In this document: piece by piece, positions 1 to 1,250 of the stretch
How the letters are laid out: each line of letters opens with the position of its first letter
Numbering within the stretch: the stretch's first letter is position 1
Origin: a virus
Lineage: Duplodnaviria; Heunggongvirae; Uroviricota; Caudoviricetes
Direction: 5' to 3' (one strand)
Length of the DNA stretch: 17,462 bases
IMG/VR virus record: IMGVR_UViG_2711768066_000009
Location: 1-17,462 of that record
Program-made: the position numbers and the translations under genes
The notes under the pieces: generated by a model
What the model was told of the DNA's origin: nothing
Database searches by the model: none
The model's input: the letters and a program-made list of their open reading frames with translations, nothing else

Positions 1-573
1 ATGTTTTGCGAAGAAAAAGTAGCTCAAATGGCTGCATACCTACTTCTTAAGCGAGGTGGGCGCATGGCATATCTGAAATTGATGAAGTTGCTCTATCTGT
101 CTAACCGCCAGTCGATTTTGAAGCATGGCAGGATGATCGGCGAAGATAGCCTTTACTCTATGAAATTTGGACCAGTCATGTCGAATACGCTGAACTTGAT
201 TCGCGGTAAGGCTGAAGGCATTGGTGACTACTGGTACAACTTGATAGAGACGAACGGGCATAATGTATCGTTGCGTTCAGATCCGAGGGAAATGGATGCA
301 GACGAGGTCTTTGATGAATTGAGTCGTGCAGATATCCGGATTTTAGATGAAATCTATTCTCGGTATGGGCATATGAACCGATTTGATCTCGCAAATATGA
401 CGCATTTAGAAAGCGTTTGTCCAGAGTGGCACGATCCTGGCAATTCTCGTAAGCCTATAGACCTGAAAGAAATGCTGATCAGTGAGGGTAAAAGCGAGGA
501 TGAGGCTAATCGCATAATTGGCAAAATGGAAGAATCTCAGAAACTTAAGGAATTTTCTTTGCAATTATCATGA
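1..573 (+). CDS. DUF4065/Panacea-like domain protein (putative antitoxin-type component); may begin at or just before window edge
   Basis: 190-aa ORF starting at window position 1. Motif KLMKLLYLS...GRMIGEDSLYSMKFGPVMSNTL fits my memory of the DUF4065 (Panacea/SocA-like) signature (KLxKLLY ... GPV). Overlaps next ORF by 4 bp (ATGA). Family call is from memory, not a search. Confidence 0.55.
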   Translation: MFCEEKVAQMAAYLLLKRGGRMAYLKLMKLLYLSNRQSILKHGRMIGEDSLYSMKFGPVMSNTLNLIRGKAEGIGDYWYNLIETNGHNVSLRSDPREMDADEVFDELSRADIRILDEIYSRYGHMNRFDLANMTHLESVCPEWHDPGNSRKPIDLKEMLISEGKSEDEANRIIGKMEESQKLKEFSLQLS

Positions 574-989
574 CGGATTATCAGCCATACAGGAAAGGAA
601 CTGTGCTTGCCCCAACTGGGCCATGCAATCATCTTCATGTGATTTGTAATGATCCTGTTTATTACCCCGTTAACGATTGTTATTGTGTTTTAGTTGTTAA
701 TATTTCTAGTATCAAGGATGGTGTCCCCCACGATCCGTCTTGCGTCTTGAATTCTGGTGATCATCGCTTTATCAAGCATCCAAGTTATGTTGTTTACGCT
801 GAAGCTATAATTTGGCGAGTGGATAACATGGTTAGAAAGCAGCGATCGGGTGAGATTTCTGTTCATGATGATATGCCAGAAGCTACATTCAATAGAATTC
901 TGGACGGTTTTGATATCTCTGATGAAGTTACGCCAAAGAACCTTAAATTTAAAAATAAATATTGCGTATCATCTATTGATGATGAGTAA
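570..989 (+). CDS. hypothetical protein, candidate toxin/effector partner of upstream Panacea-like gene
   Basis: 139-aa ORF, ATGA overlap with upstream gene (translational coupling). Visibly more AT-rich than the phage backbone. No family recognised with confidence; faint resemblance to small beta-barrel toxins (MazF/PemK-like) is speculative. Confidence 0.5.
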   Translation: MTDYQPYRKGTVLAPTGPCNHLHVICNDPVYYPVNDCYCVLVVNISSIKDGVPHDPSCVLNSGDHRFIKHPSYVVYAEAIIWRVDNMVRKQRSGEISVHDDMPEATFNRILDGFDISDEVTPKNLKFKNKYCVSSIDDE

Positions 990-1028: not shown

Positions 1029-1202
1029 ATGGAAGATCAAAAAGCAACCAAGCCACAGGTTAAGTTCGACACAATGAAAGCATTCGCAGGTATGGGTGCT
1101 GCTGTTGAAGTTCTGATGAAGGCTGCTCCTAATGCGTTCACTCACGCTACTGTCTCTGGTAAAGAGCAGCAGGGTAAGCTTCGTCGTCGCAAAGCAGCAT
1201 GA
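1029..1202 (+). CDS. small hypothetical protein (57 aa), basic C-terminus
   Basis: Hand-translated ORF below the 60-aa track cutoff: MEDQKATKPQVKFDTMKAFAGMGAAVEVLMKAAPNAFTHATVSGKEQQGKLRRRKAA. AGGAG 6 nt upstream of ATG; followed directly by an intrinsic terminator. Confidence 0.4.
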   Translation: MEDQKATKPQVKFDTMKAFAGMGAAVEVLMKAAPNAFTHATVSGKEQQGKLRRRKAA

Positions 1203-1218: not shown

Positions 1219-1250
1219 TTGAAAACCCGCCTTTAGGCGGGTTTTTTATT
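1219..1250. terminator. bidirectional rho-independent terminator between convergent transcription units
   Basis: AAAACCCGCC-TTTA-GGCGGGTTTT perfect 10-bp stem, flanked by A-run upstream and T-run downstream; sits between the stop of the 57-aa ORF (+) and the stop of the minus-strand gene at 1250. Confidence 0.75.

What the first reader, a model, noticed from the sequence alone, without database searches (positions are those of the whole stretch)
1..989. Panacea(DUF4065)-like gene translationally coupled to an unrecognised 139-aa protein: candidate toxin-antitoxin or abortive-infection pair
Two plus-strand ORFs overlap by ATGA and sit at the distal end of the leftward early operon, in opposite orientation to it and separated from it by a bidirectional terminator. 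That is typical of an independently expressed accessory cargo module. The first ORF carries a KLxKLLY...GPV signature that I associate with the Panacea/DUF4065 antitoxin domain, which is known to pair with many unrelated toxin domains. The second ORF is more AT-rich than the backbone and I cannot place it in any family, so it may be an undescribed toxin or effector. The window may truncate the module on the left.
Basis: partly seen in the sequence, partly recalled or inferred. Interest (0 to 1): 0.7.

Follow-up and report, generated by a model that had tools for sequence, protein, structure and literature searches.

The report
Prophage PanA–PanT toxin–antitoxin pair
The two overlapping genes are a toxin-antitoxin pair of an already described type: a Panacea-domain antitoxin with a MazF-shaped toxin, carried as optional cargo at the end of an E. 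coli prophage, so it is a real but fairly ordinary find.

Summary
ORF1 (1-573) and ORF2 (570-989) overlap by ATGA. ORF1 matches Pfam SocA_Panacea (E 2e-19). ORF2 is AT-richer (38.6% GC against 48.6% for the rest of the window).

Its homologues sit directly downstream of PanA in four genomes that Kurata et al. 2022 list under PanT cluster T6, with the same gene offsets. The T6 representative from Pseudomonas moraviensis was shown to be toxic, to inhibit translation, and to be bound and neutralised by its PanA.

The pair is strictly co-conserved in all 24 informative genomic loci. The family is large (2,694 clusters at 50% identity).

The window is a dusA-integrating lambdoid prophage, identical over the 1,300 bases compared to phage SKA5. 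The module fills a variable cargo slot between attP and xis and is present in 205 of 5,426 complete E. coli genomes.

Best reading: a type II PanAT module with a translation-inhibiting toxin. Its role (prophage addiction or anti-phage defence) is untested. It is a new member of a known kind, of low to moderate interest.

The parts
1..573 (+). panA: stand-alone Panacea-domain antitoxin, 190 aa, complete. It has a Panacea core (residues 27-137) and a conserved C-terminal extension ending in a long helix (166-189).
   Evidence: Pfam PF13274 at E 2.2e-19. RefSeq names it 'Panacea domain-containing protein' WP_000458584.1. The AF2 model has pLDDT 94. The N-terminus and C-terminal tail are conserved in 27 homologues.
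570..989 (+). panT: toxin of Kurata cluster T6, 139 aa, with a MazF/Kid/CcdB-like fold. Residue H21 is invariant. D55, C58, H65, S72 and Y76 are conserved in at least 94% of sequences.
570..573 (+). ATGA stop/start overlap. There is no Shine-Dalgarno sequence before ATG570, so translational coupling of panT to panA is inferred.
   Evidence: Read directly from the sequence. Homologous pairs show the same tight junctions of -4, -1 or +1 nt.
1029..1202 (+). ORF3, 57 aa, function unknown, with a good AGGAG Shine-Dalgarno sequence. It is probably co-transcribed with panAT but is not part of the conserved module.
   Evidence: phrog_2741 at E 8e-36. It is present in phage mEp460 behind a different cargo gene. 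It is absent downstream of the pair in the Vibrio, Shewanella, Pantoea, Salinivibrio, Photorhabdus and Pseudomonas loci.
1221..1246 (+). Intrinsic terminator hairpin closing the + strand unit. It lies between the convergent genes ORF3 and the PrtN-like excisionase gene (1250-1531, - strand).
   Evidence: 11-bp stem followed by a T-run. The fold is -19.3 kcal/mol with z -3.4 on the + strand and -18.1 kcal/mol on the - strand, where no free U-tract follows. The neighbouring gene matches PF11112 PyocinActivator at E 2.9e-23.

Best explanation
A type II PanA-PanT toxin-antitoxin module carried as optional cargo by a dusA-integrating lambdoid prophage. panA (1-573) encodes a stand-alone Panacea-domain antitoxin. 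panT (570-989) encodes a toxin of PanT cluster T6, translated by coupling through the ATGA overlap.

PanT has a MazF-like fold. By homology to the validated P. moraviensis member, it most likely arrests growth by blocking protein synthesis, probably as a metal-independent endoribonuclease. PanA neutralises it by forming a direct protein complex, not by protease delivery.

Shown here: the domain identities, the fold, membership of T6, strict co-conservation of the pair, and its cargo position.

Inferred: toxicity of this particular protein, RNA as the target, which residues are catalytic (H21 and H65 with D55 and C58 are the candidates), the role of PanA's C-terminal helix, and the benefit to the prophage.
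For: - Pfam Panacea hit for ORF1.
- A confident ORF2 model whose only structural matches are MazF/Kid/CcdB/ToxN toxins, by two independent methods.
- ORF2 homologues (46-56% identity) lie directly after PanA in Pantoea septica LMG 5345 (offset -4), Yersiniaceae 2016-Iso4 (-1), Salinivibrio socompensis S35 (+1) and Photorhabdus (-1). These are exactly the genomes and offsets listed under T6 in Dataset S1 of PMC8832971.
- Pseudomonas phage Sirocco carries a pair whose PanA starts MIFSEQKVAQ. This is the decapeptide Kurata et al. restored on the P. moraviensis PanA. Its PanT is 48% identical to ORF2.
- The T6 representative is toxic, is rescued by PanA, specifically inhibits 35S-Met incorporation, pulls down PanA, and does not need ClpXP or Lon.
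- A PanA homologue lies immediately upstream in all 24 genome loci with enough upstream DNA, across alpha-, beta- and gammaproteobacteria.
- The pair recurs in unrelated mobile elements.
- Its lower GC, and its replacement by another gene in mEp460, mark it as cargo.
Against: - No experiment exists on this protein. Eight of the 25 PanTs tested by Kurata et al. were not toxic in E. coli.
- The P. moraviensis PanT sequence itself could not be retrieved. The link to the validated toxin therefore rests on the published clustering plus a Pseudomonas phage proxy.
- Sequence methods do not connect ORF2 to MazF. There is no Pfam PemK hit in 90 family members (best E 0.11), no PDB hit with the family profile, and hhalign against a 5-sequence MazF alignment gives probability 0.4%.
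- The family has no conserved Arg or Lys where MazF has its catalytic Arg-Pro, so the chemistry may differ from MazF.
Confidence: 0.78

Rival explanations
1. The module's selected function is anti-phage defence by abortive infection. PanA would sense an infecting phage and release or activate PanT, shutting down translation before the invader completes its cycle. This concerns the biological role and is compatible with the TA mechanism above.
For: - The pair sits in a variable accessory slot at a prophage end, where defence genes are often found.
- It recurs in temperate phages of several genera, including P2-like phages.
- Ernits et al. [quoted passage not shown]
Against: - No hit to any PADLOC model.
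- No paper in the searched library reports defence by a T6-type PanAT.
- No trigger is known, and nothing in the sequence distinguishes defence from addiction.
Confidence: 0.3
2. The module is an addiction or stabilisation cassette for the prophage or its integration module. Cells that lose the element lose labile PanA and are arrested by PanT.
For: - The pair lies next to the dusA-type int/attP cassette in E. coli phage SKA5 and in a Vibrio P2-like prophage. Their integrases are 41% identical.
- In Salinivibrio the pair persists alone beside an intact dus gene with no phage genes called nearby. This is as expected for a module that resists deletion.
- Kurata et al. discuss an addiction role near recombination hotspots.
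Against: PanA instability is not known. Neutralisation by the tested PanAs did not depend on ClpXP or Lon. There are no curing data.
Confidence: 0.3
3. ORF2 is a CcdB-like gyrase poison and not a MazF-like translation inhibitor.
Against: - The validated T6 member inhibits protein synthesis specifically, not thymidine incorporation.
Confidence: 0.04
4. PanA works like Caulobacter SocA (type VI). It would be a proteolytic adaptor that hands the toxin to ClpXP, not an inhibitor by binding.
For: SocA is the founding Panacea protein, and Pfam names the domain after it.
Against: - SocB is in a different toxin cluster, T10.
- PanA neutralisation did not need ClpXP or Lon.
- The T6 pair from P. moraviensis forms a stable complex.
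Confidence: 0.05
5. The pair is an inactive or non-toxic relic in E. coli.
For: Eight of 25 tested PanTs were not toxic in E. coli.
Against: - Both ORFs are intact.
- The 1,300-base module region (bases 1-1300) is 100% identical in many unrelated strains and present in 205 complete genomes.
- All family-conserved residues are present in ORF2.
Confidence: 0.1

Closest known systems
Pseudomonas moraviensis PanA-PanT (PanT cluster T6; WP_083354365.1 / WP_083201923.1; Kurata et al. 2022, PMC8832971)
   Same: - The same two-gene order, antitoxin first, with a 1-4 nt overlap.
- A stand-alone Panacea antitoxin with no extra N-terminal domain and the same N-terminal sequence type.
- A toxin of the same published cluster with a MazF-like fold.
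   Different: - Here the pair is in an E. coli lambdoid prophage, not a Pseudomonas chromosome labelled 'NotPhage'.
- Identity to Pseudomonas-type members is about 48-49% (proxy: phage Sirocco).
- This member is untested.
E. coli MazE-MazF and plasmid R1 Kis-Kid
   Different: - No detectable sequence relationship.
- The antitoxin is a Panacea domain, not an AbrB- or MazE-type DNA-binding protein with a disordered tail.
- The very short loop between strands 1 and 2, together with conserved His, Asp, Cys and His, replaces the MazF Arg/Thr site.
- There are two extra C-terminal helices.
Caulobacter SocA-SocB
   Same: The antitoxin carries the same Panacea domain.
   Different: SocB is an unrelated toxin (cluster T10, targeting the replication clamp). 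SocA acts as a ClpXP adaptor. The T6-type PanA binds its toxin and does not need ClpXP or Lon.
E. coli STEC O31 PanAT (cluster T3)
   Same: It is a PanA-neutralised pair found in E. coli and validated by the same authors.
   Different: Its toxin is a small membrane-disrupting peptide, not a MazF-fold protein.

Membership tests
PanA / Panacea-domain antitoxin (Pfam PF13274) | Match to the SocA_Panacea profile above the gathering score | tested here: met
   70.9 bits against a cut-off of 25.7, E 2.2e-19, covering profile positions 1-109 of 113.
PanA / Panacea-domain antitoxin (Pfam PF13274) | Signature GPV motif, critical for neutralisation according to Kurata et al. | tested here: met
   GPV at residues 57-59. 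G57, P58 and V59 are at least 90% conserved in 36 homologues. The motif's importance is stated.
PanA / Panacea-domain antitoxin (Pfam PF13274) | Encoded within 100 nt of a partner gene in an arrangement conserved across species (the FlaGs criterion) | tested here: met
   A PanA homologue lies immediately upstream of the ORF2 homologue in all 24 informative genome loci and in further loci.
PanA / Panacea-domain antitoxin (Pfam PF13274) | Neutralises the cognate toxin by complex formation | not testable with these tools
   This needs co-expression and a pull-down. It has been shown only for the P. moraviensis T6 pair.
PanT cluster T6 (Kurata et al. 2022) | Sequence similarity to proteins listed in the cluster | tested here: met
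   In four T6-listed genomes the gene after PanA is an ORF2 homologue with the listed offset: Pantoea septica LMG 5345 (-4), 2016-Iso4 (-1), Salinivibrio socompensis S35 (+1, 49% identity) and Photorhabdus (-1, 46% identity).
PanT cluster T6 (Kurata et al. 2022) | Direct similarity to the validated member WP_083201923.1 | not tested
   That sequence could not be fetched with the tools. The proxy is Pseudomonas phage Sirocco, whose PanT is 48% identical and whose PanA starts MIFSEQKVAQ.
PanT cluster T6 (Kurata et al. 2022) | Toxic on expression and inhibits translation | not testable with these tools
   This is an experimental property, shown for P. moraviensis PanT only.
MazF/PemK/Kid endoribonucleases (Pfam PF02452) | Sequence-profile match to PemK_toxin | tested here: not met
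   - No hit for ORF2.
- One of 90 family members matches, at E 0.11.
- The family profile finds no MazF in the PDB.
- hhalign against a verified 5-sequence MazF/Kid/EndoA/ChpBK alignment gives probability 0.4%.
MazF/PemK/Kid endoribonucleases (Pfam PF02452) | MazF/CcdB fold | tested here: met
MazF/PemK/Kid endoribonucleases (Pfam PF02452) | Catalytic Arg at the start of strand 2 and Thr/Ser after strand 3 (E. coli MazF R29 and T52, from established knowledge) | tested here: inconclusive
   No Arg or Lys is conserved anywhere in the family. H21 is invariant near the sequence-equivalent place, and S46/S47 follow the long strand. No residue-level superposition was possible because model coordinates are not exposed.
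Catalogued anti-phage defence systems (PADLOC-DB v2) | Match to any defence-system protein model | tested here: not met
   No family matched ORF1, ORF2 or ORF3 at E up to 1.
SocAB type VI toxin-antitoxin | SocB-type toxin partner and ClpXP-dependent neutralisation | tested here: not met
   The partner is a T6, MazF-fold protein, whereas SocB is in T10. Protease dependence was not testable here, but it was not needed for the tested PanAs.

The most novel reading that the evidence does not exclude
The T6 PanT family, including this E. coli prophage member, may use the MazF/CcdB scaffold with a different active site. The candidate residues are invariant His21 with Asp55, Cys58, His65, Ser72 and Tyr76, and there is no conserved Arg. 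The family would then have a substrate or chemistry unlike classical MazF. PanA, sitting at the att-proximal end of dusA-integrating prophages, would act as a phage-sensing switch, which would make the pair an uncatalogued abortive-infection system.
Probability: 0.15. Interest if true: 0.55.

Novelty: new member of a known kind. Interest (0 to 1): 0.25.

Why it matters
It gives a name and a testable function to a 'hypothetical protein' found in about 4% of complete E. coli genomes and in several temperate phages. It corrects that protein's annotated start codon.

It provides an E. coli-native member of a large PanT family: about 2,700 clusters at 50% identity, no Pfam model, and only one characterised member. 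E. coli genetics and coliphage panels could settle three open points:
- which residues are catalytic;
- what the target is;
- whether Panacea-type modules at prophage ends serve defence or addiction.

It does not open a new category.

Tried and rejected
- **Sequence route from ORF2 to a known family.** All of these failed to reach MazF: Pfam, PHROGs (families of unknown function only), NCBIfam, PADLOC, phmmer and a family profile against PDB sequences, and hhalign against a small MazF alignment. Only the fold comparison did.
- **Weak Pfam ICMT hit.** E 0.05, 18 residues. Rejected as chance.
- **Retrieving the P. moraviensis PanT.** The genome-contig scan used a pattern too strict to reach Pseudomonas. 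Profile searches with PanT and with PanA returned no Pseudomonas entry among the 120 rows listed. The phage collection supplied a Pseudomonas proxy instead.
- **AFDB fold search.** The library was not available.
- **PanA model against the PDB.** No solved Panacea structure was found, only a marginal DarTG chain match.
- **ORF3 as a third module component.** Rejected, because it stays with the phage backbone when the cargo differs and is absent from other PanAT loci.
- **Operators upstream of panA in SKA5.** Only one 9-nt palindrome overlapping a weak promoter-like site was found. No conclusion was drawn.

Full report
**What is in the sequence**

The first kilobase of the window carries two + strand ORFs. 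ORF1 runs from 1 to 573 (190 aa) and ORF2 from 570 to 989 (139 aa). They share the four bases ATGA at 570-573.

A third + strand ORF of 57 aa follows at 1029-1202, behind a good AGGAG ribosome-binding site. Next comes an 11-bp GC-rich hairpin at 1221-1246 with a T-run. After that the genes turn to the minus strand, starting with a PrtN-like excisionase gene at 1250-1531 (PF11112, E 2.9e-23).

The hairpin folds on both strands (-19.3 and -18.1 kcal/mol). On the minus strand its U residues are part of the stem and no free U-tract follows. It is therefore a clear terminator for the + strand unit and only a possible one for the leftward operon.

The GC content is 43.1% for ORF1, 38.6% for ORF2, 48.3% for ORF3 and 48.6% for the rest of the window.

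**Where the window comes from**

Bases 1-1300 are 100% identical to Escherichia phage SKA5 and 99.2% identical to phage Lys8385Vzw. They are found in full in 205 of 5,426 complete E. coli genomes, and a further 360 genomes match only part of the query.

In SKA5 the gene order is integrase, a short dusA 5' fragment (the attP region), ORF1, ORF2, ORF3, excisionase, then the leftward early genes, cI/cro, replication, Q, lysis and terminase.

In a lysogen the pair lies at the very end of the prophage. It sits next to a leftover dusA fragment in the zur-yjbLM-dusA neighbourhood.

Phage mEp460 shares ORF3 and the excisionase gene but has an unrelated 177-aa gene in place of ORF1 and ORF2. The pair therefore occupies a variable cargo slot. 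ORF3 belongs to the phage backbone, not to the pair.

**ORF1**

ORF1 matches Pfam SocA_Panacea (PF13274) at E 2.2e-19, well above the gathering score. It has the GPV motif, and RefSeq already names it 'Panacea domain-containing protein'.

Its N-terminus MFCEEKVAQMAAYLL aligns with the N-termini of 27 homologues. The protein is therefore complete at window base 1, and only its promoter region lies outside the window. In SKA5 the 235 bases upstream contain one weak promoter-like site.

The AlphaFold model is confident (pLDDT 94). It shows the Panacea core followed by a conserved C-terminal extension that ends in a 24-residue helix (166-189). There is no HTH or other N-terminal domain.

**ORF2**

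No Pfam, NCBIfam or PADLOC model matches ORF2. PHROGs places it in a family of unknown function.

It has 62 close homologues in Enterobacterales, Vibrio and Shewanella. Their alignment is conserved from Met1 onwards (M-x-x-Y-x-P-Y-R-K-G-T). ATG570 is therefore the true start, and the PGAP call from GTG603 (128 aa) removes conserved residues.

A profile search of 1.84 billion representative proteins finds 2,694 clusters at E <= 1e-3 and 929 at E <= 1e-10. This is a large family.

Sequence-based links to MazF all fail:
- The family profile finds no MazF in the PDB.
- Only one of 90 family members touches Pfam PemK_toxin, at E 0.11.
- hhalign against a small alignment of MazF, Kid, EndoA, S. aureus MazF and ChpBK gives probability 0.4%. 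I wrote those five sequences from memory and verified them against the PDB.

ORF2 therefore has the MazF fold, but by sequence it is not a member of the PemK/MazF Pfam family.

**Link to published work**

Kurata et al. 2022 (PMC8832971) renamed DUF4065 Panacea and catalogued 88 clusters of partner toxins. Their cluster T6 is annotated as EndoA/PemK/MazF-like by HHpred and has antitoxin-first order.

T6 includes rows for these genomes, with their gene offsets:
- Pantoea septica LMG 5345 (offset -4)
- Yersiniaceae bacterium 2016Iso4 (-1)
- Salinivibrio socompensis S35 (+1)
- Photorhabdus (-1)
- Proteus, Pluralibacter, Methyloprofundus, a Bathymodiolus symbiont, and many alpha- and betaproteobacteria

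In the first four of these genomes I found an ORF2 homologue directly after a PanA gene, with exactly the listed offset. Identities to ORF2 range from 46% to 56%. The taxonomic spread of my genome hits matches that of T6. ORF2 therefore belongs to T6.

The T6 representative, P. moraviensis PanT, was characterised as follows:
- It is toxic in E. coli and is rescued by its PanA.
- It specifically blocks 35S-methionine incorporation.
- It co-purifies with PanA.
- PanA neutralisation did not need ClpXP or Lon.

I could not retrieve that protein's sequence. As a proxy, Pseudomonas phage Sirocco carries a pair whose PanA begins MIFSEQKVAQ, the very decapeptide the authors restored on the P. moraviensis PanA. 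The two Sirocco genes overlap by one base. Its PanT is 48% identical to ORF2, and its PanA is 49% identical to ORF1.

The E. coli rows in the stored part of Dataset S1 belong to clusters T1 and T3, not T6. This E. coli member does not appear to have been listed or tested.

**Is it a module?**

A homologue of ORF1 ends within a few bases of the ORF2 homologue's start in all 24 genome loci that have enough upstream DNA. These loci span Enterobacterales, Methylococcales, Burkholderiales, Sphingomonadales and others.

The same is true in a Vibrio P2-like prophage, a Shewanella integrative island, Photorhabdus and Salinivibrio. The flanking genes differ from case to case, so only the pair is conserved.

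**How it most likely works**

I commit to a type II PanAT module. The steps are as follows:
- PanT translation is coupled to PanA through the ATGA overlap. No Shine-Dalgarno sequence precedes ATG570. This step is inferred.
- PanA binds and inhibits PanT directly. This is shown for a relative.
- Free PanT arrests translation. This is shown for a relative.
- PanT probably acts as a metal-independent endoribonuclease, as inferred from the fold.

The family's conserved polar residues are His21 (100% of 90 sequences), Asp55, Cys58 and His65 (98% each), Ser72 (94%) and Tyr76 (99%). No Arg or Lys is conserved. The catalytic apparatus is therefore not the Arg/Thr pair of E. coli MazF, and the exact chemistry remains open. 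I could not superpose models at residue level because coordinates are not exposed.

PanA's conserved C-terminal helix is a candidate neutralising element, by analogy with the 'linear neutralisation' described by Ernits et al. 2023. This is only a conjecture.

**Biological role**

Two roles are plausible, and they are not mutually exclusive.

The first is addiction or stabilisation of the prophage or its integration cassette. The pair sits beside a dusA-type integrase/attP cassette both in this lambdoid phage and in a Vibrio P2-like prophage, and the two integrases are 41% identical. In Salinivibrio the pair persists alone next to an intact dus-pspG locus.

The second is abortive-infection defence. 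This fits the cargo position and the sensor hypothesis for Panacea. It has no direct support, however: there is no PADLOC hit, and the searched library contains no report of defence by this type.

**Verdict**

The toxin, however, belongs to an already described and partly characterised cluster. This is a new, untested E. coli prophage member of a known kind. Interest is low to moderate.

Its main value is practical. It offers a native E. coli model for a large PanT family that lacks a Pfam model, it corrects a start codon, and it provides a clean test case for the question of defence versus addiction.

Noticed in passing
window 1029-1202 (+): A 57-aa ORF (MEDQKATKPQVKFD...RRRKAA) with a strong Shine-Dalgarno sequence lies between panT and the terminator. 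It matches phrog_2741 over its full length (E 8e-36) but has no Pfam or NCBIfam hit. In phage mEp460 it is kept, at 97% DNA identity, behind a different upstream cargo gene. It is therefore a backbone gene of unknown function, probably co-transcribed with whatever cargo sits upstream.
   Followed up: partly
window 570-605; L001 8603-8989: RefSeq/PGAP annotates ORF2 from GTG603 (128 aa, WP_014640052.1). Homologues conserve the sequence from ATG570 (M-x-x-Y-x-P-Y-R-K-G-T), so the annotated start removes 11 conserved residues and hides the ATGA overlap.
   Followed up: yes
L002 4457-7531; L003/L004 2841-6424; L036 2501-4883: The T6-type PanAT pair sits next to a dusA-type integrase/attP cassette in two different phage types, an E. 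coli lambdoid phage and a Vibrio splendidus P2-like prophage. Their integrases are 41% identical over 356 aa (E 2e-96). In Salinivibrio socompensis S35 the pair stands alone 394 nt upstream of an intact dus gene followed by pspG. This may be a remnant retained after an integrated element decayed.
   Followed up: partly
L039 (Pseudomonas phage Sirocco OR683410.1) 1486-1884: The PanT homologue of this phage (132 aa, 48% identical to ORF2) is not annotated in the record. A 44-aa minus-strand 'hypothetical protein' (1741-1875) is annotated across it instead. The upstream PanA (929-1486) is labelled only 'hypothetical protein'.
   Followed up: partly
window 1-573 (model m5ff98d3efb1d): The confident PanA model has no solved structural relative in the PDB by Foldseek. 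The only match with probability above 0.5 is to chains B and D of the M. tuberculosis DarTG toxin-antitoxin complex 7yk3 (E 0.05, TM 0.41). This may be chance or a distant link between antitoxin domains.
   Followed up: no
L033 (phage mEp460) 2784-3317: The gene occupying the PanAT slot in mEp460 (F853_gp23, 177 aa) has no Pfam hit. As the occupant of the same variable slot, it is a candidate for another accessory or defence function.
   Followed up: partly
L037 1443-2082 (Photorhabdus): In Photorhabdus a PIN-domain toxin gene with a small upstream partner lies a few hundred bases from the PanAT pair, so two toxin-antitoxin-like modules are clustered there.
   Followed up: no
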